Shown: positions 34,111 to 49,282, counted from the stretch's first letter. The stretch: 64,000 nucleotides of DNA from Parvularculaceae bacterium (GCA_041744115.1 JBGTLL010000181.1:120-64119), one strand, 5' to 3'. Notes: generated from the sequence alone by a model not told the origin. Translations and numbers: made by a program.

Positions 34111-34265
34111 TCGCAGTGCGTCTCCGGGCAAATTCGTCCAGATTGACTTCTTTCCAATTAGGATCAATATATCCCGAACAGGACAAAAGTCTCTGGGTCA
34201 GCAATTATAACAGGGATCGCGCGGAAAGCAAACGGCGCTGAGCGCGGGTTGGAAAGGGGAGCGGA

Positions 34266-36269
34266 ATGCGGATTGCGTCTTTATTGGCTTCGATGCTTCT
34301 GTCAATTGCACAAGCAGCCGCCCAGGAAATACCGCCGCCCGACCCGATCCCCTCCCGCGATGGCGGTGACGCCGCAACGGTCCTGACGACATCCTCGCTG
34401 CAATCAAGCTCCGACCTGACTGCGGACGACGTTAACGCCTGGCTCGACGGATACATGCCTTACGCGCTGAAGACCGGCGACATCGCGGGCGCGGTCGTCG
34501 TCGTCGTCAAGGGCGGCGAGATTCTGACTCAGCGCGGCTACGGCTATTCGGATGTCGCTGAACGAAAACCGGTCGATCCGGCAACGACGCTCTTCAGGCC
34601 GGGGTCGGTCGCGAAACTCTTCACCTGGACGGCGGTGATGCAGCTTGTCGAACAGGGCAAGATCGATCTCGACGCCGACGTCAACATTTATCTCGACTTC
34701 AAAATTCCCGAGCGCGACGGCAAGCCGATCTCAATGCGCAATCTGCTGCAGCATACGCCCGGCTTTGAGGACCAAAGCAAAGACATCATGGCGTCCGACG
34801 GCGATGCGGTCCCGTCATACGAAGAAATTCTGAAACGCTGGACGCCCGCACGCATTTTTCCGCCCGGGGTCACGCCCGCTTATTCAAATTACGGCGCGTC
34901 GCTTGCCGGCTATATCGTCGAGCGCGTGTCGGGCGAGGCGTTTGACGACTACCTCGATCGTCACATCTTTGCGCCGCTCGCCATGGAGCATTCGACGTTC
35001 CGCCAGCCGCTGCCGGCGGCTCTCGAGGCTTTGATGTCCAAAGGATACGACGTCGCCTCGAACGAGCCGAAGGGATTTGAGTTCGTCGGGCCGGCGCCCG
35101 CGGGGTCGCTGTCGTCGACCGGCGAAGACATGGCGCGCTTCATGATCGCCCATCTCCAGAAGGGCGAATACGATGGAAATCGCATCCTCGAAGGGGCGAC
35201 GGCGGAAGAGATGCACGATTCCCCGTTGACGATCCTGCCGCCGCTCAACCGCATGCAGCTTGGTTTTTTTGAAACCAACGTCAACGGCCGCAAGGTCATC
35301 GCGCATCTGGGCGACACGCAGTGGTTTCATTCATCGCTGCATCTTTTCATCGAGGAGAATGTCGGATTCTTTGTCTCCTTCAACAGCCTCGGCAAGGGCG
35401 CCGCCGCCGGAGGGCTGCGCGGCGCGCTGTTTACCGATTTTGCCGAACGCTATTTCCCGGCGCTGCAATCGGACGATAATAGCGGCGCGCGCATCGACGC
35501 CGAGACCTCGGCTGAGCATGCGCGGCTGATGGCCGGCAACTGGATCGTGTCGCGCCGGTCGGCGACAAATTTCATGAGCGCTGCGGCTTTTTTGGGCCAG
35601 ATGAAGATTTCTGTCGGACCGGAAGGCTCTCTCAAAATTCCGCTGCCGGGCCTCAACGGGCAGCCGCAGGAATGGGTCGAAACTGCGCCTTTCGTCTGGC
35701 GCGAGGTCGGCGGCCACGAAAGGCTCGCCGCCAAGGTCGAAGATGGCGAAGTCGTCCGCTGGAGCATCGACGGCGTCTCGCCTTTCATGGTGTTCGACCG
35801 CGCGCCCTGGTATGCAAATGGCGCCTTGCTGCTTCCGATGTTCGGCGTCGCGATCGCCGTGCTGGCGATCAGTGTTGTGCTCTGGCCGGTCGGCGCGATC
35901 GTCCGCTGGCGCTATCGCGCGGCCTCTGGCCTTGATGCGCGGGCGCGGCGCGCGCGCCGCATCAGCCGGATCGCCGCGATTGCAATTCTCGGCGCAATCG
36001 CAGGCTGGGTAATGCTCTTTGTCATGATTTCGACGGATCTCAGCCATCTCAGCGCGAGCACGGATCTGTTGCTCCGTGCGCTGCAGATATTGGGCGCTGT
36101 GGCCTTTATCGGCGGATTTCTGCTGACGTCCTGGAATCTTTTTGTCGTGTGGTCGAAACGGCCGGGCTGGTTCGCCCGGCTGTGGAGCGTCGTGCTCTTT
36201 GCGTCGGCGGCCGCGATCTTGTGGGTCGCCTTCGTGGCAAAATTCATCAGCTTCGGGGTGAACTACTGA
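34266..36269 (+). CDS. Membrane-anchored serine hydrolase 1 (beta-lactamase/D-peptidase fold)
   Basis: Signal peptide, SVAK, YSN, HLGD; about 4 C-terminal TM helices ending FGVNY. Confidence 0.9.
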   Translation: MRIASLLASMLLSIAQAAAQEIPPPDPIPSRDGGDAATVLTTSSLQSSSDLTADDVNAWLDGYMPYALKTGDIAGAVVVVVKGGEILTQRGYGYSDVAERKPVDPATTLFRPGSVAKLFTWTAVMQLVEQGKIDLDADVNIYLDFKIPERDGKPISMRNLLQHTPGFEDQSKDIMASDGDAVPSYEEILKRWTPARIFPPGVTPAYSNYGASLAGYIVERVSGEAFDDYLDRHIFAPLAMEHSTFRQPLPAALEALMSKGYDVASNEPKGFEFVGPAPAGSLSSTGEDMARFMIAHLQKGEYDGNRILEGATAEEMHDSPLTILPPLNRMQLGFFETNVNGRKVIAHLGDTQWFHSSLHLFIEENVGFFVSFNSLGKGAAAGGLRGALFTDFAERYFPALQSDDNSGARIDAETSAEHARLMAGNWIVSRRSATNFMSAAAFLGQMKISVGPEGSLKIPLPGLNGQPQEWVETAPFVWREVGGHERLAAKVEDGEVVRWSIDGVSPFMVFDRAPWYANGALLLPMFGVAIAVLAISVVLWPVGAIVRWRYRAASGLDARARRARRISRIAAIAILGAIAGWVMLFVMISTDLSHLSASTDLLLRALQILGAVAFIGGFLLTSWNLFVVWSKRPGWFARLWSVVLFASAAAILWVAFVAKFISFGVNY

Positions 36270-36342
36270 TGGACTGGCCAACGGGGAGAGTCTCGGCCAA
36301 TTGCCGCCGGCGAAGGTTCGGCGACAAGCAAAGAGGGCGCTT

Positions 36343-38316
36343 GTGCGATCGATCCTTTCACTGACCATCGCAATGACGGCAATGGCCGCCGCGCCCCTCG
36401 CCGCGCAAGTGACCGCGCCGCTCGCAACGCCGGCCCCGATGGCTGTCGAGGCGCAATCGCGATCGGCGACGCCGCTGACCGCCGCCGACCTTGACGCCTG
36501 GCTCGACGGCTACATGCCGTATGCGCTGAAGACCGGCGATATCGCCGGCGCGCAACTTGTCGTCGTAAAGGACGGGGCAGTCTTGACCTCGCGGGGCTTT
36601 GGGTATTCGGACGCGGAAGCGCGCGAGCCTGTCGATCCGGCGATGACGCTGTTCCGGCTTGGCTCGGTTGGCAAATTGTTCACCTGGACCGCGGTGATGC
36701 AGCAGGTTGAGCAGGGCAAGATCGACCTCGACGCCGACATCAACGCCTATCTCGATTTCAAGATTCCCGAACGCGACGGCAAGCCTGTCACGATGCGAAA
36801 TCTGATGCAGCACACGCCGGGCTTTGAAGAATCGTTCCGGAATGGCGGGACGACCAATCCCGAAGCGGCGATTTCGACGGAACAATGGCTGAAGGACTGG
36901 ACGCCCAAACGCGTCTTCGAGGCCGGCGTGACGCCCGCCTATTCGAACTACGGCGCCTCGCTCGCCGGCTACATCGTCGAGCGCGTTTCCGGCGAGCCGT
37001 TCGATGATTATCTGGAGCGCCACATTTTCGGGCCGCTCGAAATGCGGCGATCGACCTTCCGCCAGCCGCTGCCGGATGATCTGGCGCCGTCGATGTCGAA
37101 GGGCTACGCGCTCGCTTCCGGCGATCCGAAAGACTTCGAGATATTCAATATGGCGCCGGCCGGCTCGATGTCATCGACCGCCGACGACATGGCGAAATTC
37201 ATGATCGCGTTTCTGCAGGATGGCGAGTTCAACGGCAAGCGCATACTTCGCCCGGAAACGGTCGAGATGATGCACAACAGCCCGTTGACATTGCTGCCGC
37301 CGCTCAACCGGATGGAGCTCGGGTTTTTCGAAACCGGCATCAACGGCCGCAAGATCACCGGGCATCACGGTGACACGCAGCTTTTTCACACCTCGCTGCA
37401 TCTCCTCAGAGACGAGGGCGTCGGCTTTTATGTCTCCTTCAACAGCACGGGCAAGGCCGGCGTCTCCGGCGACCTCCGCACCGCGCTGTTCGACGATTTT
37501 GCCGATCGCTATTTTCCAGGCGAAGGCGTTGACGGCCGCGTCGACGCCGGGACGGCGGCTGAACATGCGAAGATGATGGCGGGGAATTGGGTGCTGTCGC
37601 GGGGCTCGGCGTCGAACTTCATGAACGTGATTGAACTGTTTAGCCAGTTCACGATCAGCGTCGGGCCAGAGGGCGAACTTGTCGTGCCCTACCTCGGTCT
37701 GAACGGCAAGCCGCGCGACTGGGTCGAGATCGCGCCATTCGTCTGGCGCGATGTTGGCGGTCATCAGCGTCTCGCCGCGCAGGTCGAGGGTGGCAAGCCC
37801 GTGCGCTTCAGTTTCGATCTGGTATCCCCGTTCATGGTGTGGGACCGCGCGCCCTGGTACAAGAACACCGCAATCCTGCTGCCGCTGTTCGGCGCGAGCC
37901 TTGCAGCGCTGGCGCTCACCCTCATTCTATGGCCGGTCGTCGCAATCGTCCGCTGGCGTCATAAATCAAGCCTTGCGCTCGAGCCGCGTGCGCTTGGCGC
38001 CTATCGTCGTAGCCGGCTCGCGGCGCTCGCAATCATCCTCGGCATGGCAGGCTGGGTCGGCGCGCTCGCCGTGCTGACGCTCGACAGCGACGCCGCGAGT
38101 TCAGCCTCCGATCCGATGTTCTGGTTTGTCCAGATCTTCGGCGCTGTCGCCTTCATCGGCGGCGCTTTGCTGTTGCTGCGAAGTCTGCAAGTCGTGTGGA
38201 CGGGCAAACGGAGCTGGTTTGCGAAGCTGTGGAGCCTCGTGCTGGCGGCGTCCGCGCTCTCCGTTCTCTATGTGGCGTTCGCCTTCAAGCTGATCGGTTT
38301 CGGGGTGAATTATTGA
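36343..38316 (+). CDS. Membrane-anchored serine hydrolase 2 (paralog)
   Basis: SVGK, YSN, HHGD; same architecture, also ends FGVNY. GTG start inferred (ORF track 36301). Confidence 0.9.
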   Translation: MRSILSLTIAMTAMAAAPLAAQVTAPLATPAPMAVEAQSRSATPLTAADLDAWLDGYMPYALKTGDIAGAQLVVVKDGAVLTSRGFGYSDAEAREPVDPAMTLFRLGSVGKLFTWTAVMQQVEQGKIDLDADINAYLDFKIPERDGKPVTMRNLMQHTPGFEESFRNGGTTNPEAAISTEQWLKDWTPKRVFEAGVTPAYSNYGASLAGYIVERVSGEPFDDYLERHIFGPLEMRRSTFRQPLPDDLAPSMSKGYALASGDPKDFEIFNMAPAGSMSSTADDMAKFMIAFLQDGEFNGKRILRPETVEMMHNSPLTLLPPLNRMELGFFETGINGRKITGHHGDTQLFHTSLHLLRDEGVGFYVSFNSTGKAGVSGDLRTALFDDFADRYFPGEGVDGRVDAGTAAEHAKMMAGNWVLSRGSASNFMNVIELFSQFTISVGPEGELVVPYLGLNGKPRDWVEIAPFVWRDVGGHQRLAAQVEGGKPVRFSFDLVSPFMVWDRAPWYKNTAILLPLFGASLAALALTLILWPVVAIVRWRHKSSLALEPRALGAYRRSRLAALAIILGMAGWVGALAVLTLDSDAASSASDPMFWFVQIFGAVAFIGGALLLLRSLQVVWTGKRSWFAKLWSLVLAASALSVLYVAFAFKLIGFGVNY

Positions 38317-39326
38317 TGACCCGCCTTTCGATGACGGCGGCGGTCGAACGCTACCCGCTTGCCGCGCCTTTCCGCATCTCCGGCCTTGTGTTCGAGCGGC
38401 AGGACGTCGTCGTCGTGACGCTGAGCGACGGCGTCCACCAGGGACGCGGCGAGGCGGCAGGCGTCTACTATCTGGGCGAGGGAACGCCGGAGATGATCGC
38501 GGCGCTCGACTCCGTTCGCGCGGAAATCGAGGCGGGCGTTGATCGCGCGGCGCTGCAACGCCTCTTGCCGCCGGGCGGCGCGCGCAATGCGCTGGATTGC
38601 GCCTTGTGGGAGCTTGACGCGGCGCGCGCCGGCAAACCGGTTTGGGAACTGGCGGGTCTTGTTGCGCCGAAGGCCTTGTTGACGACATTTACGGTGGGCG
38701 CTGACGATCCCGACCGGATGGCGCAAGGCGCGCGCAGGTTTGCACAGGCGCGTTCGATAAAACTGAAACTTACCGGCGAGCTTGATCTTGACATTGAGCG
38801 CGTGCAGGCGGTGCGCGCAGCGCGCCCCGATGTGTGGATCGGCGCCGACGCCAATCAGGGTTTTGCCGTCTCCGATCTTGAGGCGCTCATCCGCGCATTG
38901 GTCGTCTCCGGCGTTTCCTTGCTCGAACAGCCGCTGGCGCGCGGACGCGAGGCCGATCTTGAAGGATTGAAATCGCCGATCCCGATCGCCGCCGACGAAA
39001 GCGTCCTGTCGCTGGCTGACATAGCAGGGCTGGTCGGGCGTTTTGCTGTCGTCAACATCAAGCTCGACAAATGCGGGGGTCTGACCGAAGGGCTGGCGAT
39101 GGCGGCGGAAGCGCGGCGCCTCGGACTCGGCGTCATGGTCGGCAACATGGTCGGCACCAGCCTCGCGATGGCGCCGGCGTTTGTGCTCGGCCAATTGTGC
39201 GACGTCGTTGACCTTGATGGACCGATTTTCCTCGCCAGGGACCGCTCTCCCGGCGTCACCTACGCCGACGGCGCGGTCTCTTGCGGCGAGGACGTCTGGG
39301 GAACGCCGAGATCCGCCGCGGCATGA
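38316..39326 (+). CDS. Enolase-superfamily dipeptide epimerase/N-acyl-amino-acid racemase (DgcA/YcjG-like)
   Basis: KLK, DANQ, EQP, DES, NIKLDKCGG and DLD; overlaps the stop of the previous gene. Confidence 0.9.
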   Translation: MTRLSMTAAVERYPLAAPFRISGLVFERQDVVVVTLSDGVHQGRGEAAGVYYLGEGTPEMIAALDSVRAEIEAGVDRAALQRLLPPGGARNALDCALWELDAARAGKPVWELAGLVAPKALLTTFTVGADDPDRMAQGARRFAQARSIKLKLTGELDLDIERVQAVRAARPDVWIGADANQGFAVSDLEALIRALVVSGVSLLEQPLARGREADLEGLKSPIPIAADESVLSLADIAGLVGRFAVVNIKLDKCGGLTEGLAMAAEARRLGLGVMVGNMVGTSLAMAPAFVLGQLCDVVDLDGPIFLARDRSPGVTYADGAVSCGEDVWGTPRSAAA

Positions 39327-40618
39327 CCGCGCCGCCGGAAACGACCTGGTTCGGCCATCCGCGCGGGCTGACGATTCTTTTTCTGACCGAGATGTGGGAG
39401 AAATTCTCCTACTACGGCATGCGCGCATTGCTGGTCTATTACATGACCAAGCAATTGCTGATCGGTCAGGAAAAAGCCTCCTACATCTACGGCGCCTACA
39501 CCGCCTTTGCCTATTTCACGCCGATCTTCGGCGGCGCGATCGCCGATCGCTGGCTTGGCAAACGACGCGCGGTGATCATCGGCGGCAGCGTGATGGCCGC
39601 CGGCCATTTCATGATGACATTCGAGCCGCTGTTTTATCCGGCGCTGGCGACAATCGCGTTCGGCAACGGCCTGTTCCTGCCGAGCCTGCCGAGCCAGATC
39701 AACGACCTTTATCCGGCGACGGATCGCCGGCGCGGCTCGGCGTATAATGTCTATTATGTCGGCATCAATGTCGGCGGATTTCTGGCGCCGCTTGTCTGCG
39801 GCACGCTCGGGGAACTCTACGGCTGGCATTGGGGGTTCGGCGCGGCCGGTATCGGGATGATCGCGGGACTCGCAATCTATATTTTCGGCGGCAGATATCT
39901 GCCCGACGCGGCGCGTCGCCAGCCGATGGCGCGCCGCCCCGCAATGGCGCCCGCAAATTATCGCTCGACCTTTTTTGTCCTCATCGGCGTCGGCCTTGCG
40001 GTGACGGTCTTTCGCGGCGCCTACGAACAGGTCGGCAACACGGTCGCCTTGTGGGCGGACGTCGGCGTCGACCGGGCGGCGGGAGCGATGACGATCCCGA
40101 TGACGTGGTTCCAGTCGCTGAACCCGCTCTTCGTCGTCATGATGACGCCGCTGCTGCTCGCCCATTGGCGGCGGCGGTCGGACAGGGGGCGCGAGCAGTC
40201 TTCGGCGCAAAAGATGGCGATCGGCGCGGCGATCGTCGCCGGCGCCTATCTGCTGCTGGCGGCGGCGTCGTATATTTCCGGCGATGGCGGCCGTTCACAC
40301 TGGCTGTGGCTCGCCGCGTTCTTTGCGATCCTCACCTTGGGCGAACTCTATATTCTGCCGACGGGGCTTGGCCTCTTCGCGCGCCTCGCCCCGGTCGGGT
40401 TCGGCGCAACGACGGTCGCCGCCTGGTTCTTGGCGATCTTTACCGGCAGCCTGACCGCCGGCGCCGTCGGCGCGTTGTGGAGCGATCTCAGTCATGCCGC
40501 GTACTTCGCCGTCCTCGCGGCGATTTCAATCGTCGCGGCCGGATTGCTTCTCGCACTCGACCCGTCCTCGCGGCGCGTCGAGGCGGCGCGAGCCAAAGAA
40601 ACCGAGGGAATGATATGA
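39323..40618 (+). CDS. POT/PTR2 proton-dependent di/tripeptide transporter
   Basis: GHPRGL...EMWEKFSYYGMRALL; FQSLNP. Confidence 0.93.
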   Translation: MTAPPETTWFGHPRGLTILFLTEMWEKFSYYGMRALLVYYMTKQLLIGQEKASYIYGAYTAFAYFTPIFGGAIADRWLGKRRAVIIGGSVMAAGHFMMTFEPLFYPALATIAFGNGLFLPSLPSQINDLYPATDRRRGSAYNVYYVGINVGGFLAPLVCGTLGELYGWHWGFGAAGIGMIAGLAIYIFGGRYLPDAARRQPMARRPAMAPANYRSTFFVLIGVGLAVTVFRGAYEQVGNTVALWADVGVDRAAGAMTIPMTWFQSLNPLFVVMMTPLLLAHWRRRSDRGREQSSAQKMAIGAAIVAGAYLLLAAASYISGDGGRSHWLWLAAFFAILTLGELYILPTGLGLFARLAPVGFGATTVAAWFLAIFTGSLTAGAVGALWSDLSHAAYFAVLAAISIVAAGLLLALDPSSRRVEAARAKETEGMI

Positions 40619-41922
40619 AAAATGTCGTCATCGCGGCGTTCCTCCTCGCCACGTCGCTTCTTGCAACCGCCAAGGCGCAGACCGAGGGCGCAGCGCCGGA
40701 GGCCAGTCCGGCGAAGCAATCCTATATCCACGCGGGCCGTCTGCTCGCCGATCCGGCGACGGGCCGTGTCAATAGCGAAAAGACAGTCGTGATCGCCGAA
40801 GGAAGGGTCGTCGAAATCCGCGACGGCTATGTCGGCGAGGGCGAGATCATCGATCTCAAAGACAGCTTCGTTCTGCCGGGACTGATCGACGCGCACGTGC
40901 ACCTCCTGTTTGAAAACGGCCCCGCCGCCGAACTCGAGGCGCTGAAGAAGACCAGCGCCGATCTCGTCATCGATGGCGTCGTCAATGCGCGGCGGACGCT
41001 GGACGCCGGATTTACGACCGTTATTGATCTCGGCGATGACAGCGACGCGATCTACGCGCTCCGCGACGGCGTCGCCGCGGGCCATATCGTTGGCCCACGG
41101 ATTATCGCTGCCGGCATCGTCGGCGCCCATGGGGGCCACGCCGACATCCACGGCTATCGCCCCGATATTGGCGCTCTCTTCAAGCATCCGGGCCTTTGTT
41201 CCGGCGCCGACGATTGCGCCCGCGCGACGCGCCAGGCGATCCAGCGCGGCGCCGACATCATCAAGACGGCCTCGACCGGCGGCGTCATGTCCAACACTGC
41301 GGCGGGCCTCGGCCAGCAGATGAGCGATGAAGAGCTTGCGGCGATCGTGACGACGGCGCACCGGCTAGGGCGACAGGTCGCCTGCCATGCGCACGGCGCG
41401 GACGGAGTCAATGCGGCGCTGCGGGCGGGCGTCGATTCGATCGAGCATGGAACATTTCTCGACGCCTTGTCGATCAAGCTCATGAAAGAGAGCGGCGCCT
41501 ATCTCGTGCCGACCCTCCTTGCCGGCGACACCGTGCGCCAGCAGGCCGAGACCGCCGAATGGATGCCGCAAGCGGTCCGCGACAAAGCGCGCGATGTCGG
41601 GCCCAGAATGATCGCCGCCGCCAGGCGCGCAAGAGAAGGCGGCGTCAAAGTCGCGTTCGGGACAGACTCTGCCGTATCAAAGCACGGCGACAACGCCCGC
41701 GAGTTTGCGCTGATGGTGACAGCAGGGTTCAGCCCGCTCGACGCAATTCGCTCGGCGACCGTGTGGGGCGCGGCGCATATTCGCCTCGAAGGCGAAATCG
41801 GCAGCATCGCGGCGGGCAAGGCGGCGGACATCATCGCCGTCAAAGGCGACCCGCTCGTCGATATCCGCGTGCTCGAACAGGTCGGATTTGTCATGCGGAG
41901 CGGCGAAATCGCGCGGCGCTAG
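40615..41922 (+). CDS. Secreted metal-dependent amidohydrolase (Xaa-Pro dipeptidase-like)
   Basis: Signal peptide; PGLIDAHVH, IIK, CHAHG, SIEHG, FGTD. The true start is 40615, not 39829. Confidence 0.9.
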   Translation: MKNVVIAAFLLATSLLATAKAQTEGAAPEASPAKQSYIHAGRLLADPATGRVNSEKTVVIAEGRVVEIRDGYVGEGEIIDLKDSFVLPGLIDAHVHLLFENGPAAELEALKKTSADLVIDGVVNARRTLDAGFTTVIDLGDDSDAIYALRDGVAAGHIVGPRIIAAGIVGAHGGHADIHGYRPDIGALFKHPGLCSGADDCARATRQAIQRGADIIKTASTGGVMSNTAAGLGQQMSDEELAAIVTTAHRLGRQVACHAHGADGVNAALRAGVDSIEHGTFLDALSIKLMKESGAYLVPTLLAGDTVRQQAETAEWMPQAVRDKARDVGPRMIAAARRAREGGVKVAFGTDSAVSKHGDNAREFALMVTAGFSPLDAIRSATVWGAAHIRLEGEIGSIAAGKAADIIAVKGDPLVDIRVLEQVGFVMRSGEIARR

Positions 41923-42018
41923 CACCGGCCGACCAGGATACAGCCCGCGATTTTGGTTGACTTTTCTCTGATCAGGACCGTATAGTCCTAAATTGGCTAT
42001 TATTGTCTGGAAGGGCGC

Positions 42019-43218
42019 ATGAGTCGCTGGCCGGTACCCGATCGCCGCAATCTGTTCAAAGGCGTCGCCGCCGGGGCGGTCGTCATGGCGGGCTTCGTTT
42101 TTCCGGCGGCCGGCATTCGCGCGGCGGCGCAAGGCAAAACTTATTCTCCGCGGGCCGTGGCGCTGGTCGAGAAATCGCTCGTCATCGACATGCTGGCGCC
42201 GCTGCGCCTCAACCTGACGCCGGAGGCATACACAAAGCCGCTGACGCGTGAGGAAATCGCCGACTTTCGCGCCTCCGGCGTCACTGGTTTCCACAGCGCG
42301 TTCGGCATCGGCGGACCGACCGCGCGCGAAGACGGGCTCAGCCTCCTTGCCGCGTGGCAGGGGTTTGTCGGCAGGCATTCCGATCTCTTTCTTCTGGTCG
42401 ATAGCGTCGCCGATCTCGACCGCGCGAAAAGCGAAAACAAGATCGCGATGATCAGCGGTATTCAGAACGCGGATCAGTTTGCCGACGCCGATGATGTCGA
42501 GTTTTTCCACGGGCTGGGTCTCAGGTGTGCGCAGCTCACTTACAACAGCCAGAATCTCTTGGGGTCCGGGGCGACGGACCGGGTCGATGGCGGGCTGTCG
42601 GATTACGGCGCCGAGATCGTTGCCGCGATGAACAAGGCCGGAATGCTGGTCGATGTCTCCCATAGCGGCGACAAGACGACCCTCGACGCCATCGCCGCCT
42701 CGGCGGGACCGATCGCGATCACCCATTCAAATTGCCGCGCCATCGTCAATCATCCGCGCGCCAAGACCAATGAAGCGATCAGGGCGCTCGCGAAAAAGGG
42801 CGGCGTGATGGGCGTCACCGGCGTCCGCAATTTTGTGCGCGACCGGGAACCGACGACGGTCGCGCATATTGTCGATCATATCGACCATATCGTGAAGCTC
42901 GTCGGCGTCGAGCATGTCGGCATCGGATCGGATTCCGACCTTTACGGCTACGACGACATGCCGGCCGATCAATATGAAGCGCTGAAGCAAAGCTACAAGG
43001 CGAGCTACGCCTTCCGCGATAAAATCGACGTCGACGGCTTCGATCATCCGCTGAGGATTTTCGATCTGACCGATGAGCTGATCCGGCGCAAATATTCCGA
43101 TGCGAACATCGCGCTGGTTCTCGGCGGCAATTTCCGCCGGCTGCTCGGTGAAACATGGAAACGAACAACAAAGGCGGTTCCGCAACTGGACGCCACAACG
43201 GGAGGGGCCAAACAATGA
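42019..43218 (+). CDS. Tat-exported membrane dipeptidase (M19)
   Basis: DRRNLFK twin-arginine signal; QLTYN, DVSH, THSN, HVGIGSD. Confidence 0.9.
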   Translation: MSRWPVPDRRNLFKGVAAGAVVMAGFVFPAAGIRAAAQGKTYSPRAVALVEKSLVIDMLAPLRLNLTPEAYTKPLTREEIADFRASGVTGFHSAFGIGGPTAREDGLSLLAAWQGFVGRHSDLFLLVDSVADLDRAKSENKIAMISGIQNADQFADADDVEFFHGLGLRCAQLTYNSQNLLGSGATDRVDGGLSDYGAEIVAAMNKAGMLVDVSHSGDKTTLDAIAASAGPIAITHSNCRAIVNHPRAKTNEAIRALAKKGGVMGVTGVRNFVRDREPTTVAHIVDHIDHIVKLVGVEHVGIGSDSDLYGYDDMPADQYEALKQSYKASYAFRDKIDVDGFDHPLRIFDLTDELIRRKYSDANIALVLGGNFRRLLGETWKRTTKAVPQLDATTGGAKQ

Positions 43219-45521
43219 CCATCAAGAAAATGTCAAAGCGCGCCGCGCTGATGGCGTCGGCGGGATTTTGGGTCGCCTTTAGCGGCATAGCGTGGGCGCA
43301 GGACGCATCACCGACGGAAGCAGACGACGAAGTCATCGTCACCGCGCAAAAGCGTGAGCAAAGCCTGATCGAGGTCCCTTTGTCGGTGACAGTCCTCGAC
43401 GGCGGCAATCTCGAGCTTCAGCAGGCCGATACTTTCCTCGATTATATCGGCCAGGTTCCAGGCCTCAGCATTGAACAAGCGACGCCCGGCGCGTCGCGTC
43501 TCATCTTGCGGGGCGTCAACACCGGGTCGATTGGTTCGACCTTGGGGATTTATGTCGATGAAACGCCGTTCGGGTCGAGCACCAGCCTCGGCAACGCCGC
43601 GATCCTCGCCGGCGACTTCGACACCTTCGATCTCGAACGGGTCGAGGTCTTGCGCGGGCCCCAAGGGACGCTTTACGGCGCGAACTCGCTCGGCGGCGTC
43701 CTGAAATTCGTCACGCAAGCCCCAAAACTCGGCGTTTATGAAGCGCGCGCCCAAATCGGCGCCGAATCGGTTAAGGGAGGCGACGATTTCGGCTATAACG
43801 CCAACGCCGTCGTCAACCTGCCGCTCGGCGACACGATCGCCGTGCGCGCCAGCGGATTTTACCGCGAGAACGACGGCTTCATCGACGCCACCGGCAGACC
43901 CGCCGAGGACATCAATGGCTCGGAAAGCTATGGCGGCCGGGCGTCCGCGCTGTTCGAGCCGACCGAAGCGCTATCAGTCCGGCTGACCGGAATTTACCAG
44001 AAGATCGCGGCCAACACTGGAACGCTGTTCGATGCCGATCCCCTCACGCTGGAACCACTCGCCAACGATCCTTTCACCATGGCGCCGCTGAATGGCCAAC
44101 TGACCTTCGCGCAGTTCTTTCCCGATTCGAGCGATGTCGAATACAAGCTCTACAACGGCACCGGCGATTGGGATTTAGGTTTCGCCAGCCTTACCTCCGC
44201 GACCAGCTATGGCGTCCTTCAGCAGGACATCGTCGCCGATGCCTCGTCAATCCTCACCGGCCTTGTAACGTTCCTTTACCAAACCTTTGGGGACCCCCTG
44301 ACGCCGCCGCTCGGCATCTTTGCCGACCAGAGCATTAGGCAGAAGAAGTTCACCCAGGAATTGCGGCTCGCGTCGCCAACGTCCGACACGTTCGAATGGC
44401 TGATCGGCGGCTATTTTACGCGCGAGACCGTCGCCCTCGCTCAGGACGCGCTTCCGTTTAACCTTGCGACGTTGGCGCTGACCAATCCGGCGCTCCTCGG
44501 GTTTGACGATTTCCAGACGGCGGCGCTCGATTCGAAATACAAGGAATATGCGGGATTCGCGAACGCCACCTGGCACATCTTGCCGCGGCTCGATCTTTCG
44601 GCCGGCGGCCGCTACAGCCACAACGACCAGAGTTCCGCCCAATTTCTCAATGGCGCGATCTTTCTCCTCTCGGGCGTGCCGGCGCCGATCGCGATCACGG
44701 GTGAATCGTCGGAAAACGTGTTCACCTGGTCGGTGTCGCCGCGCTTTGAACTGAGCGACAATGCGTCGATCTATGCGCGCGTCGCCAAAGGCTATCGACC
44801 GGGTGGTCCGAATGTGGTGCCGCCGGGCGCGGCGCCCGACTTTCCATTCGAATTCGACGCCGACACGCTAATCAGCTATGAGGCGGGCGTGAAGGCCCAA
44901 ACCGCCGACGGCGTCTTCGCGATCGACGCTGCGGGCTATTATCTCGACTGGAAAGACATTCTCGTCTTCGCGCAATTTCCGAGCGCCGTCGGACCGATTG
45001 GCGGCAACGACAACGGCCCCGGCGCGAAAAGCATCGGCGCCGAGGTGACGGTCTCCTTGCGACCGGTGGAAGGGTTGAGCGTTGTCGCCAACGGCGCGTA
45101 CAACGATGCCGAGCTGACCGCCGACACATCGGCGTTGGTTGGCGGTCTCGACGGCGACCAACTGCCGTTCGCGCCAAAATGGTCCGGCAACATCAGCGCC
45201 GATTATGAATGGACCCTTTCGGGCGACGCGACGGTCTTTGTCGGGGGCAATCTGCGGTTGGTCGGCGACCAGTCGGCCGATTTCGACCGGCTTACCGCGC
45301 CTTTTGCCGGTCTGAGACTGGGCTTGCCAAGCTATGAAGTCGTCGACCTGCGGACCGGCGTCACATTCGGCAATCTGTCGGTGACGGGGTATGTCCGGAA
45401 CCTCACCGATTCCGGCGGCCTCACTTCCGTCGGCGGCTTCGGTGGGAGACCCGGCACGGCCGTCGTGGCCTCGCCGATCCGTCCGCGGACTTATGGCGTA
45501 ACGATAGGCGCGTCGTTCTGA
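43215..45521 (+). CDS. TonB-dependent receptor (TBDR3)
   Basis: DEVIVTAQKREQSL and RVEVLRGPQGTLYG; C-terminal F. Confidence 0.95.
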   Translation: MTIKKMSKRAALMASAGFWVAFSGIAWAQDASPTEADDEVIVTAQKREQSLIEVPLSVTVLDGGNLELQQADTFLDYIGQVPGLSIEQATPGASRLILRGVNTGSIGSTLGIYVDETPFGSSTSLGNAAILAGDFDTFDLERVEVLRGPQGTLYGANSLGGVLKFVTQAPKLGVYEARAQIGAESVKGGDDFGYNANAVVNLPLGDTIAVRASGFYRENDGFIDATGRPAEDINGSESYGGRASALFEPTEALSVRLTGIYQKIAANTGTLFDADPLTLEPLANDPFTMAPLNGQLTFAQFFPDSSDVEYKLYNGTGDWDLGFASLTSATSYGVLQQDIVADASSILTGLVTFLYQTFGDPLTPPLGIFADQSIRQKKFTQELRLASPTSDTFEWLIGGYFTRETVALAQDALPFNLATLALTNPALLGFDDFQTAALDSKYKEYAGFANATWHILPRLDLSAGGRYSHNDQSSAQFLNGAIFLLSGVPAPIAITGESSENVFTWSVSPRFELSDNASIYARVAKGYRPGGPNVVPPGAAPDFPFEFDADTLISYEAGVKAQTADGVFAIDAAGYYLDWKDILVFAQFPSAVGPIGGNDNGPGAKSIGAEVTVSLRPVEGLSVVANGAYNDAELTADTSALVGGLDGDQLPFAPKWSGNISADYEWTLSGDATVFVGGNLRLVGDQSADFDRLTAPFAGLRLGLPSYEVVDLRTGVTFGNLSVTGYVRNLTDSGGLTSVGGFGGRPGTAVVASPIRPRTYGVTIGASF

Positions 45522-45535
45522 GCGATTCAGGGACA

Positions 45536-45567
45536 GGGCGCGGGGCAAGACAATCGGCGCCGCGCCC
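45536..45567. other. Intercistronic hairpin after TBDR3
   Basis: GGGCGCGG/CCGCGCCC stem, no U-tract. Confidence 0.45.
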
Positions 45568-45588
45568 GCGCCGCGAGGGAACGCCAAA

Positions 45589-46650
45589 GTGCACAATCTG
45601 TCGTTAGCCGATCTGGAACAGGAAAGCGCCGAGGGATCGGCGCTTGTTCTTCCCCGGCCCTATCTTCTGTTTCTCGGAGACGCGACGGACGCCGCCTACG
45701 CCAAGACCGCGTTCGGGCTTCGCGACTGGGCGCCCGAAAATTGCGTCGGCGAATTCGCCTGCGCCGGCGACAGGATCAGTCTCGGCCTGCCGTTCCTGAC
45801 GCCGGCGGAGGCGCGCGGCCTCGGCGCGCGCGCCATGGTCATCGGCGTCGCCAATACCGGCGGCGTCATTCTGGAAGCTTGGGTTCCCCTGCTGCTTGAG
45901 GCGCTGGCCGCCGGTCTCGATCTCGTCAGCGGCATGCACGACCGGCTGGAAAGCGTGCCCGCGCTCAAGGAAACCGCCAAGAAATATGGACGGCGCCTGA
46001 TCGATATCAGGACGCCCCCGGCATCAATCCCGATTGCAACCGGCCGCAAGCGCCTGGGCAAACGATTGCTCACCGTCGGCACCGACTGTGCGCTTGGGAA
46101 AAAATACACGGCGCTGGCGCTGGCGCGGGCTTTCAAGGCGCGCGGCCTCGACGCCGATTTTCGCGCGACCGGCCAGACCGGCATTCTGATCGCCGGCAGC
46201 GGCATACCGATCGACGCGGTGGTCTCCGATTTCGTCGCCGGCGCCGCCGAGATTTTGAGCCCGGACGCCGCGCCCGGTCACTGGGACGTAATCGAAGGCC
46301 AAGGTTCGGTGTTTCACCCGGCCTATGCGGGGGTCGCTCTCGGCCTGCTGCACGGAAGCCAGCCCGACGTCATTGTCGTCTGTCACGATCCTTGGCGCAA
46401 ATACGTGCTCGGCCATCCGGATTACAAGATCGTCAGCCTCGAAGAGACGATCGACCTCACCTTGCGGCTTGGAAAACGCACCAATCCGGCGATCCGCTGC
46501 GGCGGCGTCAGCCTCAACACGTCGAGCCTCGACGAAGCCGCGGCGCGCCGGCTGATCGCGAACGAGGCGGCCCGGCTGAACCTCCCGGTCGCCGATCCGA
46601 TCAGGGGCGGCCCGGAATTTGAATTGTTGGTGGACGGATGTATCGGCTGA
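45589..46650 (+). CDS. DUF1611 P-loop protein (DgcN-like D-glutamate N-acetyltransferase)
   Basis: PYLLFLGD, AKTAFG, VGTDCALGKKYT, FRATGQTG, IEGQGS. Confidence 0.88.
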   Translation: MHNLSLADLEQESAEGSALVLPRPYLLFLGDATDAAYAKTAFGLRDWAPENCVGEFACAGDRISLGLPFLTPAEARGLGARAMVIGVANTGGVILEAWVPLLLEALAAGLDLVSGMHDRLESVPALKETAKKYGRRLIDIRTPPASIPIATGRKRLGKRLLTVGTDCALGKKYTALALARAFKARGLDADFRATGQTGILIAGSGIPIDAVVSDFVAGAAEILSPDAAPGHWDVIEGQGSVFHPAYAGVALGLLHGSQPDVIVVCHDPWRKYVLGHPDYKIVSLEETIDLTLRLGKRTNPAIRCGGVSLNTSSLDEAAARRLIANEAARLNLPVADPIRGGPEFELLVDGCIG

Positions 46651-47624
46651 CGACTTTGCTGGCCGGTCTCGCGTTCATGCTGGCGGCGCCGGCGTTGGGC
46701 GCCGGGCCCGCGGATACATTGAAAGCGGAAATCGAACGGATCGCGGCGCCGGTCGGCGGCGTTGTCGGCGTCGCCGCCGGGCGGCTTGACGGCAACGGGC
46801 CGCGGATTTCGGTCAACGCCGAAACGCCGTTCCCGATGGCGAGCACGTTCAAGATCGCGGTCGCCGGAAAAATTCTCGCGCTGGTCGACAGCGGCGAGAT
46901 CAGCCTCGATCAGATGGTGAATGTCGATCCCGACCTCCACGTTGAATCGGAAGTGATCGCCGACCGCTTCATCCATCCGGGCGTCAGCCTCTCGGTGCAC
47001 AATCTGCTCGAACTGATGATAACGCAAAGCGACAACACCGCGACCGATGTGCTGACGGCGCTCGCCGGCGGGCCGGACGCGGTGACGGCGTGGGTTCGCG
47101 GCGAGGGCGTCGAGGGCTTGCGCGTCGATCGCGACACCGGCGGCCTCTTGCGTGATTTTTACGGACTGCCGGCGGGGGCCTTTCCGGATGCGCTTGCGGA
47201 GGCGTACGCGGCCAACCCGGATATCGTGGAAAAGAGCGATAAGCCCGATCCGGCTTTCGACAAGGATCCGCGCGACACCTCTACGCCGGCGGCGATGGCG
47301 CATCTCCTTGACCGCATCTTCAGCGGCGACGCGCTGGCAACAGAAACGACGCGGGAACTGATTGCGATGATGGAACGCAACCGCACCGGGGACGGACGGA
47401 TCAGGGCAAGGCTGCCGCCAGCGACAAAAGTCGCCGACAAAACCGGCACCGTCGGCGGGTCGCTCAACGATGTCGGCGTGATCACGCTTCCAGGGGGCGC
47501 AGGCGACATCGTCGTTGCGATTTTCATCAAGGAGAGCGCAGTTCCCTTTGCTGCGCGCGAAGCGGCGATCGCCGACATCGCGCGCGCGATTTACGATTTT
47601 TATCTGTTCGGCGCCAGGCGATGA
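46638..47624 (+). CDS. Class A beta-lactamase-fold serine hydrolase lacking the Glu166 equivalent
   Basis: STFK, SDN and KTG present; RVDRDT aligns to TEM RLDRWE; enlarged omega loop before DPRDTSTP. Confidence 0.85.
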   Translation: MYRLTTLLAGLAFMLAAPALGAGPADTLKAEIERIAAPVGGVVGVAAGRLDGNGPRISVNAETPFPMASTFKIAVAGKILALVDSGEISLDQMVNVDPDLHVESEVIADRFIHPGVSLSVHNLLELMITQSDNTATDVLTALAGGPDAVTAWVRGEGVEGLRVDRDTGGLLRDFYGLPAGAFPDALAEAYAANPDIVEKSDKPDPAFDKDPRDTSTPAAMAHLLDRIFSGDALATETTRELIAMMERNRTGDGRIRARLPPATKVADKTGTVGGSLNDVGVITLPGGAGDIVVAIFIKESAVPFAAREAAIADIARAIYDFYLFGARR

Positions 47625-47634
47625 CAGGTCGATT

Positions 47635-49209
47635 ATGATGAAACGCGTAATCTTCATGCTGGCGCTAGTTTGCGGCTCGCCGCTGAATGCGGCGCCTCCA
47701 GCAGAGTTCGACGCTCGCGTCGAAGCGTTTCGCGAGGACGTGGGCGTTCCCGGCGTATCGATCGCGATTGTCGAAAAGGGCGCAGTCACCCTCGCCAGGG
47801 GCTATGGCGTGAAGCGCCTCGGTTCGCCCGATCCCGCCGGCCCCGATACGCTTTTTTCAACCGGCTCGACCGGCAAGGCGGTCACGGTCGCCGCGCTGGC
47901 GATCCTCGTCGACGAGGGAAAGATCGGCTGGGACGACAAGGTCATCGATCATCTGAGCTGGTTCCGGATGTACGATCCGTGGGTCACGCGCGAGATAACG
48001 ATCCGCGACCTCCTGGTTCACCGCAGCGGTCTCGGGCTTGGCGCGGGCGATCTGCTGTTCGTTCCCGACGCCAAAGCGTCTCGCGCGGAAAGTGTGCGGC
48101 GGCTGCGCTCGATCAAGCCGGCGACCAGTTTTCGCAGCGGCTATGCCTATGACAACGTCCTCTACATGGTGGCCGGCCAGCTGATCGAGGAGGTGACCGG
48201 CAAGACGTGGGAGCACTATGTCGCCGACCGTGTGCTCAAGCCCGCCGGCATGCTGAATTCGACGACCGATGACGACATCCGCTTCACCAGAGCCGATCGC
48301 GCGCAGCCGCACGCACGGATGAATGGCGGATTTCGCGGCGTCGGCGATCAGGAGTTGCTGAACGAACGCGACGGCCTCGGCCGCAACGCCGCCCCGGCCG
48401 GCGGCCTTGCGGTCAGCGCCAACGACATGGCGCGCTGGCTTCTTGTCCAGCTCGCGCGCGGCAAACTTCCCGGCAGCGAAGAACGGCTGTTCAGCGAGGC
48501 CGCATCGACGGAGATGTGGACCCCCGTCGTCATTCAGCCGGTCGATCAGTTGCCGGCAGCGCTCGCCGACGCCGTGCCCGATTTTTATACCTATGCGCTC
48601 GGCTGGGACGTCCAAGACTACAAGGGCGCGAAGATCATCTGGCATGGCGGCGCTGTCTTCGGTTTCAAGGCCGCCGTCGTGCTTATTCCCGATCGCGATG
48701 TCGGGTTCTCGATTGTCATCAATTCCGAAGACGGCGAACTTACTTACGGCGTCATGTATGAACTGCTCGACCATTACCTTGGCGAGCCCAAGGGCGACTG
48801 GCCCGCGGCCTGGAAAAACTATAAAGCGCAACGCGTCGCCGAAGCCAACGAAGCGCTGAAGGTCCAGACCGGCAAACCGGCGGGTGTGGGTCCGTCGCTT
48901 GCGCTTTCGGGCTATGCCGGAAATTACGCCGACCCGTGGTACGGGCCGATCGTCATCACCGAGAGAAAGGGCAAGCTCGCCATTGATTTCATGCACACGC
49001 CGGGAATGAAAGGCAGCCTCGATCACTGGCAATATGAAACTTTCCAGACCCGCTTCGCCGACAAGACGATCGAACCCGCTTACGTCACGTTCGTGCTCGA
49101 CGCCGACGGAAAGGTCGAGCGGATCACGATGAAGCCGGTCTCGCCGGCGGCCGACTTCAGCTACGATTATCAGGACCTTGTGTTCACCCCGGTCAAGGGA
49201 CCGCAATGA
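47635..49209 (+). CDS. Secreted class C-like serine hydrolase with a C-terminal DUF3471-like domain
   Basis: STGK, YDN, HGG; C-terminal YAGNYADPWYG...LDHWQYETF. Confidence 0.88.
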   Translation: MMKRVIFMLALVCGSPLNAAPPAEFDARVEAFREDVGVPGVSIAIVEKGAVTLARGYGVKRLGSPDPAGPDTLFSTGSTGKAVTVAALAILVDEGKIGWDDKVIDHLSWFRMYDPWVTREITIRDLLVHRSGLGLGAGDLLFVPDAKASRAESVRRLRSIKPATSFRSGYAYDNVLYMVAGQLIEEVTGKTWEHYVADRVLKPAGMLNSTTDDDIRFTRADRAQPHARMNGGFRGVGDQELLNERDGLGRNAAPAGGLAVSANDMARWLLVQLARGKLPGSEERLFSEAASTEMWTPVVIQPVDQLPAALADAVPDFYTYALGWDVQDYKGAKIIWHGGAVFGFKAAVVLIPDRDVGFSIVINSEDGELTYGVMYELLDHYLGEPKGDWPAAWKNYKAQRVAEANEALKVQTGKPAGVGPSLALSGYAGNYADPWYGPIVITERKGKLAIDFMHTPGMKGSLDHWQYETFQTRFADKTIEPAYVTFVLDADGKVERITMKPVSPAADFSYDYQDLVFTPVKGPQ

Positions 49210-49282
49210 CCGGTCTCGCGGTCGCATTCTTTTCCGCCGCCGGCGCTGCGGCGATCCTCGTCCATCTCTTCGAGCGGCTGCG

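What the first reader, a model, noticed from the sequence alone, without database searches (positions are those of the whole stretch)
38316..46650. DgcN-like and DgcA-like genes embedded in a peptide-import operon
Established: in marine Pseudoalteromonas a DUF1611 protein (DgcN) N-acetylates D-Glu, an enolase-superfamily enzyme (DgcA) racemises N-acetyl-D-Glu, and a deacetylase follows. Seen: both family members are here, about 6 kb apart, flanking the transporter, amidohydrolase, dipeptidase and TBDR genes. Inference: D-Glu released from imported peptides is salvaged this way. The only amidohydrolase present has a signal peptide, so the deacetylase step is unexplained or encoded elsewhere.
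Basis: partly seen in the sequence, partly recalled or inferred. Interest (0 to 1): 0.6.

Follow-up and report, generated by a model that had tools for sequence, protein, structure and literature searches.

The report
Divergent DgcN/DgcA-like D-amino-acid pair
Both genes are real, intact relatives of the enzymes that convert D-glutamate to L-glutamate, but they belong to a separate, widely shared sister lineage that sits inside a D-peptide uptake operon and lacks the arginines kept by all the glutamate-type relatives, so which D-amino acid they convert is still open.

Summary
Observation confirmed. 38316-39326 encodes an enolase-superfamily racemase and 45589-46650 a DUF1611 protein. They lie 6.26 kb apart on the same strand. 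The POT permease, a signal-peptide amidohydrolase, an M19 dipeptidase and a TonB-dependent receptor lie between them.

Interpretation partly supported. DgcA and DgcN are the best NCBIfam matches, but both scores fall below the equivalog cut-offs (375.6 vs 400; 451.7 vs 480). Trees place both proteins in a distinct clade I call "W". W members share 56-75% identity with the window proteins. They share only 38-54% with DgcN-adjacent pairs.

The W DUF1611 lacks Arg48 and Arg274, which are near-invariant in true DgcN. The W enolase replaces the 20s- and 50s-loop residues R..R and PYxR with G..F and GVYY. DgcA and E. coli L-Ala-D/L-Glu epimerase both keep those residues. All catalytic motifs are intact.

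The pairing holds when loci are seeded with the enolase: 46 of 50 full-length loci also carry a W-type DUF1611. These loci occur in Lysobacterales, Steroidobacteraceae, Sphingomonadales and Caulobacterales.

Best reading: an acylate-then-racemise salvage module for a D-amino acid that is probably not D-Glu, fed by the operon's peptidases. Candidate deacylases (ArgE and other M20 enzymes) are encoded elsewhere in the genome.

This scan has noted the same locus type on other DNA and read it as D-Glu recycling.

The parts
33436..34167 (-). Divergent XRE-type HTH plus cupin regulator, the likely operon regulator
   Evidence: Pfam HTH_3/HTH_31 plus Cupin_2. The same kind of regulator sits divergently upstream of W loci in Sphingomonas, Steroidobacteraceae, Arenimonas and Caulobacter. 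True DgcN pairs sampled instead had a LysR gene.
34266..36269 (+). S12 / class-C-beta-lactamase-fold serine hydrolase with an N-terminal signal and four C-terminal membrane helices (SerHydA)
   Evidence: Pfam PF00144, E 1e-58. Weak NCBIfam matches to AmpH and D-aminopeptidase.
36301..38316 (+). Paralogous S12 serine hydrolase (SerHydB), translationally coupled to the enolase gene
   Evidence: PF00144, E 5e-62. Its TGA stop overlaps the enolase ATG as TGATG. A hydrolase of this type lies immediately upstream of the enolase in 49 of 50 enolase-seeded loci.
38316..39326 (+). Enolase-superfamily racemase/epimerase of clade W (DgcA/YcjG-like)
   Evidence: NF042940 at 375.6 bits, below the 400 cut-off. 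Best PDB matches are 4gfi (235 bits) and 1jpd/YcjG (209 bits). The W clade has 100% SH-aLRT support. KxK, DAN, EQP, KxDK and DxD motifs are kept. Pocket residues are G23, F26, G49-V50-Y51-Y52, Q181, R209 and N277.
39323..40618 (+). POT-family di/tripeptide:H+ symporter
   Evidence: PF00854; TIGR00924 at 280 bits, above its cut-off. ATGA overlap with the enolase stop.
40615..41922 (+). Secreted COG1228-type amidohydrolase (a dipeptidase/carboxypeptidase family)
   Evidence: PF01979. NF051886 (Xaa-Pro dipeptidase, Caulobacter type) at 354.7 bits, below the 500 cut-off. Signal peptide read from the sequence. ATGA overlap with the POT stop.
42019..43218 (+). M19 membrane-dipeptidase-family enzyme with a Tat-type leader
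   Evidence: PF01244, E 4e-77. DRRNLFKG leader. A promoter-like site lies at 41957-41986.
43215..45521 (+). TonB-dependent outer-membrane receptor
   Evidence: Plug plus TonB_dep_Rec_b-barrel domains. ATGA overlap with the M19 stop.
45589..46650 (+). DUF1611 protein of clade W (DgcN-like acyltransferase candidate)
   Evidence: NF041892 at 451.7 bits, below the 480 cut-off. PDB 7xrj at 346 bits and about 48-50% identity. W clade has 95% SH-aLRT support inside the DgcN family. A48 and L274 stand where true DgcN has Arg.
46638..47624 (+). Class-A-beta-lactamase-fold protein with a signal peptide
   Evidence: PF13354; NF033103 at 221 bits. 13-nt overlap with the DUF1611 gene.
47635..49209 (+). Secreted S12 serine hydrolase with a C-terminal DUF3471 domain (SerHydC)
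   Evidence: PF00144 plus PF11954. Present in 49 of 58 DUF1611-seeded full-length loci.
49283..50380 (+). YkvI-family inner-membrane protein (putative amino-acid permease)
   Evidence: No Pfam or NCBIfam match. Close relatives are named 'YkvI family membrane protein' by NCBI, UniRef and JGI, and an identical 365-aa product is on record. It lies directly after the DUF1611 gene in 37 of 58 loci.

Best explanation
The two genes form a cytoplasmic 'acylate, then racemise' module with the same chemistry as DgcN/DgcA, but they come from a sister lineage (clade W) with a remodelled substrate pocket.

Proposed steps:
1. The receptor and the secreted or membrane-anchored S12, M19, class-A-fold and COG1228 hydrolases import D-amino-acid-containing peptides and cut them in the periplasm.
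2. The POT and YkvI carriers move the products into the cytoplasm.
3. The DUF1611 enzyme N-acylates a free D-amino acid using an acyl-CoA.
4. The enolase-type enzyme inverts the alpha-carbon of the N-acyl-D-amino acid by the two-lysine, Mg-dependent proton transfer of its superfamily. It may also do this for near-isosteric L-Xaa-D-Yaa dipeptides brought in by POT.
5. An L-specific deacylase or dipeptidase encoded elsewhere releases the L-amino acid.

The preferred D-residue is probably not D-glutamate. It is more likely a neutral or aromatic-compatible side chain.

Shown: gene identities, intact catalytic motifs, clade membership, residue differences, conserved linkage.
Inferred: acyl transfer, the identity of the substrate, the compartments, and the flow between steps.
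For: Family: DgcN and DgcA are the top NCBIfam matches. The DUF1611 protein aligns to the solved D-Glu acetyltransferase 7xrj over residues 22-342 (the identity of 7xrj is given in 10.1101/2024.10.14.618325).

Intactness: every near-invariant column is kept. KxK, EQP, KxDK and DxD are present in 61 of 61 W enolases and DAN in 60 of 61.

Linkage:
- 52 of 58 DUF1611-seeded full-length loci carry a W enolase.
- 46 of 50 enolase-seeded full-length loci carry a W DUF1611.
- In related non-W lineages of the same class the two genes are adjacent.

Separate lineage:
- The W DUF1611 clade has 95% support and the W enolase clade 100%.
- In a 301-genome sample, scores fall into bands: 499-571 bits for true DgcN, 434-472 bits for W and near-W, and about 155-177 bits for distant DUF1611.
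- One genome, G032, carries both a true adjacent pair and a W locus.

Pocket:
- True DgcN has R48 in 27 of 29 sequences and R274 in 28 of 29. W has A48 in 79 of 82 and L274 in 71 of 82. L274 lies in the conserved H266-x3-R270-x3-[R/L]-G motif.
- DgcA-adjacent enolases (28) and lone or YcjG enolases (13) share R, R/K and PYxR. W has G, F and GVYY.
- Across 231 DUF1611 genes in the loci held, 200 had an enolase in the same locus. Of 146 Arg-less DUF1611 genes with a partner, 145 have an enolase lacking all three cationic residues.

Context:
- 14 true pairs with 9-kb flanks have none of the W-locus genes.
- They instead sit next to a LysR regulator, a class IV aminotransferase or a GltP/DctA-type carrier.

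Deacylase candidates elsewhere in the genome: ArgE and a PRK07338-type M20 hydrolase.
Against: - No member of clade W, or of the wider GVxY class, has been assayed. Acyl transfer by a W DUF1611 is extrapolated from proteins about 50% identical.
- That the lost arginines contact the glutamate side chain is not shown here. For the enolase it rests on my recollection of the YkfB/YcjG literature (Arg24). The papers are not held. For DgcN it rests only on clade-specific conservation.
- The Arg274 / PYxR association is a single evolutionary event (one change on the tree). It is a clade trait and not repeated co-variation.
- W gains Arg209, two Tyr, Gln181 and Asn277. These could bind a carboxylate in another geometry.
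- Cell-wall peptides, the obvious food for such an operon, would yield D-Glu.
- The enolase gene is coupled to an S12 hydrolase gene and the POT gene, not to the DUF1611 gene. That arrangement also fits a plain dipeptide epimerase.
Confidence: 0.45

Rival explanations
1. The pair are functional orthologues of DgcN and DgcA. They acetylate D-Glu released from imported (cell-wall) peptides and racemise N-acetyl-D-Glu to N-acetyl-L-Glu. That product is deacetylated elsewhere or enters arginine synthesis.
For: - Top NCBIfam matches, only 24-28 bits under the cut-offs.
- The W DUF1611 lies inside the DgcN family relative to distant DUF1611 paralogues (96% support).
- The operon's S12, M19 and class-A-fold enzymes fit cell-wall peptide breakdown, which yields D-Glu.
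- This genome has no other DgcN or DgcA copy.
- ArgE is present and ArgJ was not found, so N-acetyl-L-Glu has a route onward.
- W gains Arg209, which might replace the lost arginines.
Against: - Arg48 and Arg274 of true DgcN are absent.
- R, R/K and PYxR, shared by both Glu-specific enzyme types, are replaced by G, F and GVYY in 61 of 61 W enolases.
- G032 keeps a true pair, with a GltP/DctA-type carrier, alongside a W locus. This suggests the two are not redundant.
- No acidic-amino-acid carrier is present in the W locus.
Confidence: 0.22
2. The enolase is simply a dipeptide epimerase, as NCBI names its close relatives. It acts on L-Xaa-D-Yaa dipeptides imported by the POT carrier so that ordinary dipeptidases can cleave them, as YcjG does for L-Ala-D-Glu in E. 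coli. The DUF1611 protein has a separate job, for example acylating or detoxifying a free D-amino acid taken up by YkvI.
For: - The enolase gene is coupled by TGATG to an S12 hydrolase gene and by ATGA to the POT gene. This S12-enolase order holds in 49 of 50 loci.
- The DUF1611 gene instead sits next to the receptor and YkvI genes.
- The DxD motif, which I recall binds the dipeptide ammonium group, is kept in 61 of 61 W enolases.
- E. coli YcjG nests among DgcN-adjacent DgcA, and no alignment column separates the two sets. So dipeptide and N-acyl activities are not distinguishable by sequence in this family.
- NCBI labels close relatives 'dipeptide epimerase'.
Against: - The DUF1611 and enolase genes co-occur in 46 of 50 and 52 of 58 loci.
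- They are directly adjacent in many related GVxY-class lineages. This points to one pathway.
- DgcA keeps the DxD motif too, so the motif does not discriminate.
Confidence: 0.2

Closest known systems
DgcN-DgcA D-glutamate catabolic pair (Yu et al. 2023, ISME J 17:537; EC 2.3.1.312 and 5.1.1.25; NCBIfam NF041892 and NF042940; PDB 7xrj)
   Same: - The same two protein families and a single copy of each.
- Both genes lie in one locus, and the catalytic and near-invariant residues are kept.
- The presumed logic of N-acylation followed by racemisation is the same.
- No dedicated deacylase is encoded beside them.
   Different: - Both scores are below the equivalog cut-offs.
- Both proteins fall in a separate clade.
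- The genes are 6.3 kb apart, not adjacent.
- DUF1611 has A48 and L274 where DgcN has R48 and R274.
- The enolase has G23, F26 and GVYY where DgcA has R, R/K and PYxR.
- The regulator is HTH-cupin, not LysR.
- The locus has receptor, peptidase, POT and YkvI genes, whereas true pairs sit alone or next to an amino-acid carrier or aminotransferase.
- The source is a hot-spring metagenome, not seawater.
L-Ala-D/L-Glu epimerase YcjG of E. coli (PDB 1jpd) with MpaA in murein-tripeptide recycling; YkfB of B. subtilis
   Same: - Same enolase subgroup and the same catalytic motifs, including DxD.
- 41% identity, equal to the distance from DgcA.
- A role downstream of peptide import and peptidases.
   Different: - YcjG keeps the Arg-rich 20s and 50s loops, and W does not.
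- YcjG has no DUF1611 partner.
- YcjG nests inside the DgcA side of the tree, away from W.
N-succinylamino-acid racemase pathway of Geobacillus kaustophilus (acyltransferase, NSAR, L-desuccinylase; Sakai et al. 2006, recalled and not checked here)
   Same: The same three-step logic for irreversible D-to-L conversion of neutral or hydrophobic amino acids, using an enolase-superfamily racemase on an N-acyl substrate.
   Different: There the acyltransferase is a GNAT, not a DUF1611 protein. The racemase belongs to the NSAR/OSBS branch. An M20 deacylase is encoded in the same operon.

Membership tests
DgcN, D-glutamate N-acetyltransferase (NF041892 equivalog) | Score at or above the curated equivalog cut-off (480 bits) | tested here: not met
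   451.7 bits. In the 301-genome sample, true members score 499-571 bits and W or near-W members 434-472 bits.
DgcN, D-glutamate N-acetyltransferase (NF041892 equivalog) | DUF1611_N plus DUF1611 P-loop architecture with the family-invariant residues | tested here: met
   Both Pfam domains present. All 73 near-invariant columns kept. Full-length alignment to 7xrj.
DgcN, D-glutamate N-acetyltransferase (NF041892 equivalog) | Membership of the clade that holds the characterised or over-cut-off proteins, marked by Arg at window positions 48 and 274 | tested here: not met
   The window has A48 and L274. True DgcN has R in 27 of 29 and 28 of 29 sequences. R274 changes once on the tree of 188 sequences. 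W is a separate clade with 95% support.
DgcN, D-glutamate N-acetyltransferase (NF041892 equivalog) | Gene directly adjacent to its racemase gene | tested here: not met
   All 28 over-cut-off DgcN genes have the enolase about 1 kb away. Here the gap is 6,262 bp within one operon.
DgcN, D-glutamate N-acetyltransferase (NF041892 equivalog) | Acetyl-CoA-dependent acetylation of D-Glu | not testable with these tools
   Needs an enzyme assay.
DgcA, N-acetyl-D-Glu racemase (NF042940 equivalog) | Score at or above the curated cut-off (400 bits) | tested here: not met
   375.6 bits.
DgcA, N-acetyl-D-Glu racemase (NF042940 equivalog) | Enolase-superfamily MLE-subgroup catalytic set (KxK, D, E, D metal ligands, second Lys) | tested here: met
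   KxK, DAN, EQP, ADE and KxDK are present in the window protein. KxK, EQP and KxDK occur in 61 of 61 W sequences, DAN in 60 of 61 and ADE in 54 of 61.
DgcA, N-acetyl-D-Glu racemase (NF042940 equivalog) | Capping-loop residues shared by all DgcN-adjacent members (R, R/K in the 20s loop; PYxR in the 50s loop) | tested here: not met
   The window has G23, F26 and G49-V50-Y51-Y52.
L-Ala-D/L-Glu epimerase (YcjG, NF011708) | Score at or above the cut-off (343 bits), and the 20s-loop Arg (Arg24 in 1jpd numbering) that by my recollection binds the Glu carboxylate | tested here: not met
   240.3 bits. The Arg24 equivalent is Gly23.
Dipeptide epimerases of the enolase superfamily (general) | DxD motif after the eighth strand plus the catalytic set. 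Activity on L-Xaa-D/L-Yaa dipeptides | tested here: inconclusive
   DxD is present in 61 of 61 W sequences, but DgcA keeps it as well. Activity cannot be tested here.

The most novel reading that the evidence does not exclude
The GVxY-type enolases and their Arg274-less DUF1611 partners, including clade W, form a large uncharacterised second class of DgcN/DgcA-like modules. This class converts non-acidic D-amino acids to L-forms, for example hydrophobic D-residues from cell-wall remodelling or from non-ribosomal peptides. It is the cytoplasmic end of a TonB-dependent utilisation locus for D-peptides that has spread horizontally among soil, freshwater and hot-spring Proteobacteria. Variation at the pocket positions (G/S/F/N and Y/F/D) would then mark different D-amino-acid specificities.
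Probability: 0.35. Interest if true: 0.7.

Novelty: new variant of a known kind. Interest (0 to 1): 0.5.

Why it matters
D-amino acids from cell walls and peptide antibiotics are a large, slowly degraded pool of organic nitrogen. Only one acylate-and-racemise route, for D-Glu, has been characterised in this enzyme pair.

Environmental surveys already count 'dgcN' genes as D-Glu catabolism (PMC12363236). If a large share of DgcN-like genes belongs to a class with a different pocket, those counts mix functions.

The work also shows that the DgcA equivalog model matches more than twice as many genomes as the DgcN model. It shows that E. coli's dipeptide epimerase nests among DgcA sequences. Annotation of both activities therefore needs experimental anchors.

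The W locus gives cultured carriers in which to test this, including Arenimonas daejeonensis, Sphingopyxis indica, Pseudoxanthomonas mexicana and Stenotrophomonas rhizophila.

Tried and rejected
- Papers not held. The original DgcN/DgcA paper (PMC10030869 and its DOI) is not held. I therefore could not take its catalytic or substrate-binding residues, its deacylase or its gene-cluster figure. Lukk 2012 and Kalyanaraman 2008 are also not held, and no held paper links the epimerase to Arg24. The Arg24 role is from memory.
- Searches for 'DUF1611' and for '7XRJ' found nothing about this locus.
- Sequencing runs: no RNA holder is listed. The stretch is held only by four DNA runs of one hot-springs study, one of which is probably the source.
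- A test for repeated co-variation between DUF1611 Arg274 and the enolase PYxR loop gave only one independent contrast. I do not claim co-evolution.
- A search for columns that separate DgcN-adjacent DgcA from lone or YcjG-type enzymes found none that is convincing.
- My GC3-based gene caller picked wrong-strand ORFs in some loci. I relied on tblastn matches instead.
- My first estimate of 57% identity to 7xrj was wrong. A count of the printed alignment gives about 48%.
- Structure prediction was not run. The tools return no coordinates, so residue-to-ligand distances could not be measured.
- Rejected as the missing deacetylase: the locus amidohydrolase and the M19 dipeptidase (both have export signals), and the two TIGR01891 M20 enzymes elsewhere in the genome (both also have signal peptides).

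Full report
WHAT IS THERE

The region is one + strand operon of about 16 kb (34266-50380), preceded by a divergent HTH-cupin regulator gene (33436-34167, minus strand). The genes run in this order:
- two S12 (class-C-beta-lactamase-fold) serine hydrolases with signal peptides and C-terminal membrane helices
- the enolase-superfamily gene (38316-39326)
- a POT peptide permease
- a secreted COG1228-type amidohydrolase
- a Tat-leader M19 dipeptidase
- a TonB-dependent receptor
- the DUF1611 gene (45589-46650)
- a class-A-fold protein
- a secreted S12 hydrolase with a DUF3471 domain
- a YkvI-family membrane protein

Several junctions are overlaps of the kind that goes with translational coupling:
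- TGATG between the second S12 gene and the enolase gene
- ATGA between enolase and POT, between POT and amidohydrolase, and between M19 and the receptor
- 13 nt between the DUF1611 gene and the class-A-fold gene

The two genes are 6,262 bp apart.

FAMILY ASSIGNMENT

DgcA (NF042940) and DgcN (NF041892) are the best NCBIfam matches, but both scores are below the equivalog cut-offs: 375.6 against 400 and 451.7 against 480. Each gene is single-copy in the 3.27-Mb, 97.7%-complete genome.

The DUF1611 protein aligns over its whole length to PDB 7xrj. GapMind 2026 identifies 7xrj as the D-glutamate acetyltransferase of Yu et al. 2023. Counting the printed alignment gives about 48% identity.

The best solved relatives of the enolase are 4gfi (235 bits) and E. 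coli YcjG, 1jpd (209 bits). NCBI names close relatives 'dipeptide epimerase', and JGI names them 'L-Ala-D/L-Glu epimerase / N-acetyl-D-glutamate racemase'.

A SEPARATE LINEAGE

I sampled 301 genomes of the phylum.
- DgcN scores fall into three bands: 499-571 bits in 28 genomes, 434-472 bits (the window and four other matches), and about 155-177 bits for distant DUF1611 paralogues.
- Every over-cut-off DgcN has its enolase partner about 1 kb away.
- The window proteins are 47-54% (DUF1611) and 38-46% (enolase) identical to those true pairs.
- They are 63-75% and 56-75% identical to a large set of relatives, which I call clade W. These come from Steroidobacteraceae, Woeseiaceae, Lysobacterales, Sphingomonadales and Caulobacterales.

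IQ-TREE (quick mode) recovers the W DUF1611 proteins as one clade with 95% SH-aLRT support. This clade lies inside the DgcN family relative to distant paralogues. The W enolases form one clade with 100% support. Alpha- and gammaproteobacterial sequences are interleaved within W, which suggests horizontal spread of the locus.

One sampled genome, G032, holds both a true adjacent pair and a complete W locus.

THE ENOLASE TREE IS INFORMATIVE IN ANOTHER WAY

E. coli YcjG is a characterised L-Ala-D/L-Glu epimerase. It nests with 99% support among gammaproteobacterial DgcA genes that are adjacent to DgcN.

The DgcA model exceeds its cut-off in 61 of 301 genomes, against 28 for the DgcN model. No alignment column cleanly separates DgcN-adjacent enzymes from lone ones.

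Homology therefore cannot tell N-acetyl-Glu racemase from Ala-Glu epimerase. The window enzyme is equally far from both: 41% identity to YcjG.

POCKET RESIDUES

Both Glu-specific enzyme types share an Arg and an Arg/Lys in the 20s loop and a PYxR motif in the 50s loop. This holds for 28 DgcN-adjacent and 13 lone sequences. Clade W (61 sequences) has Gly23, Phe26 and Gly49-Val50-Tyr51-Tyr52 at these positions. It also has Gln181, Arg209 and Asn277.

In 1jpd chain numbering the first Arg is Arg24. From my own recollection of the YkfB/YcjG literature, Arg24 binds the glutamate gamma-carboxylate, and its absence flagged a change of specificity in Thermotoga TM0006. Those papers are not held, so this point is unverified here.

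In the DUF1611 protein, true DgcN has Arg at window positions 48 and 274 (27 of 29 and 28 of 29 sequences). W has Ala and Leu. The distant DUF1611 structure 2obn also lacks both arginines. Position 274 lies in a conserved H-x3-R-x3-[R/L]-G motif.

I checked the association across the 231 DUF1611 genes in the loci held. Of these, 200 had an enolase in the same locus, and 146 of those 200 lack both arginines. In 145 of the 146, the partner enolase lacks all three cationic residues. Arg274 changes only once on the tree. This is therefore a clade trait and not repeated co-evolution, and I claim no statistical support for it.

A further scan was seeded with a non-W, Arg-less DUF1611 from G124. It shows that GVxY-type enolases adjacent to Arg274-less DUF1611 genes form a broad class. 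Members occur in Maricaulis, Kordiimonas, Parahaliea, Steroidobacteraceae and some Acidobacteriota. S12 hydrolases, receptors and YkvI-like genes are often nearby.

LINKAGE AND CONTEXT

- Seeded with the DUF1611 protein, 52 of 58 full-length loci contain a W enolase.
- Seeded with the enolase, an unbiased test of the pairing, 46 of 50 contain a W DUF1611.
- The tightest adjacencies are S12 hydrolase followed by enolase (49 of 50 loci) and DUF1611 followed by YkvI (37 of 58 loci).
- The HTH-cupin regulator recurs in four orders.
- Fourteen true DgcN-DgcA loci with 9-kb flanks contain none of the W-locus genes.
- Neighbours of true pairs that I annotated include a LysR regulator, a class IV aminotransferase and a GltP/DctA-type carrier.

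THE DEACYLASE QUESTION

The locus amidohydrolase and the M19 dipeptidase both carry export signals, so neither is a likely cytoplasmic deacylase.

Elsewhere the genome encodes at least nine M20 enzymes. Among them are a cytoplasmic ArgE (415 bits, above its cut-off), a PRK07338-type hydrolase, DapE, and two TIGR01891 amidohydrolases with signal peptides. ArgJ was not found. 'Encoded elsewhere' is therefore plausible.

SOURCE

The stretch is held only by DNA runs of one hot-springs metagenome study. The setting is not marine.

VERDICT

The genes are a real, intact DgcN/DgcA-like pair in a conserved operon for importing and breaking down D-peptides. They are not members of the characterised D-Glu families by score, by clade or by pocket residues. 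My estimates are:
- 0.45: an acylate-then-racemise module with altered, probably non-acidic, specificity. The enolase may also accept dipeptides.
- 0.20: a plain dipeptide epimerase with an independent DUF1611 function.
- The remainder: something else.

Earlier notes of this scan on other genomes (e1-4112307, e1-3915856) describe the same locus type and read it as D-Glu recycling. My residue and clade analysis questions that specific point and agrees with them on the conservation of the locus.

Noticed in passing
window 49206-49286: A 26-codon ORF (MTGLAVAFFSAAGAAAILVHLFERLR) starts in an ATGA overlap with the stop of the S12/DUF3471 gene and ends in a GTGA overlap with the GTG start of the YkvI gene. 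It has one hydrophobic helix. It could be a small membrane protein or only a coupling frame.
   Followed up: no
L133:4931-5896 (E. coli ycjG) and loci L083-L132: The NCBIfam DgcA equivalog exceeds its cut-off in 61 of 301 sampled genomes, but DgcN does so in only 28. E. coli YcjG nests among DgcN-adjacent DgcA sequences, and no alignment column separates the two sets. Either the model over-calls or these enzymes do both reactions.
   Followed up: partly
L113 and L114 (genome G032): One genome carries both a true adjacent DgcN-DgcA pair followed by a GltP/DctA-type carrier and a full W-type locus. The length of contig C1 equals that of a record named Qipengyuania sp. MTN3-11. It would be a natural test strain.
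   Followed up: partly
window 30700-34200: The operon begins just after a DDE_3 transposase remnant (31029-31649). The best matches of its proteins are gammaproteobacterial (73-75%), while the genome groups with an alphaproteobacterial class. Together with the interleaved trees, this suggests the locus was acquired horizontally.
   Followed up: partly
window 41957-41986: A promoter-like site (TTGACT-18-TATAGT, 10 of 12 matches) lies in the 96-bp gap before the M19 gene. The operon may therefore be two transcription units. The scan as a whole found no more sites than in shuffled sequence.
   Followed up: no
PDB 7xrj versus loci L083-L093: Three 8-9-residue strings of 7xrj printed occur only in loci of family f11 (GC 56-66%, same class as the window). 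None occurs in the low-GC family f55.
   Followed up: partly
L156:8268-9989, L113:11404-13119, L114:5533-7242: Amidohydrolases of the PRK09061 type occur in some W loci and next to a true pair, but not in this window. I recall this group as the N-acyl-D-amino-acid deacylase / L-Xaa-D-Xaa dipeptidase group.
   Followed up: no
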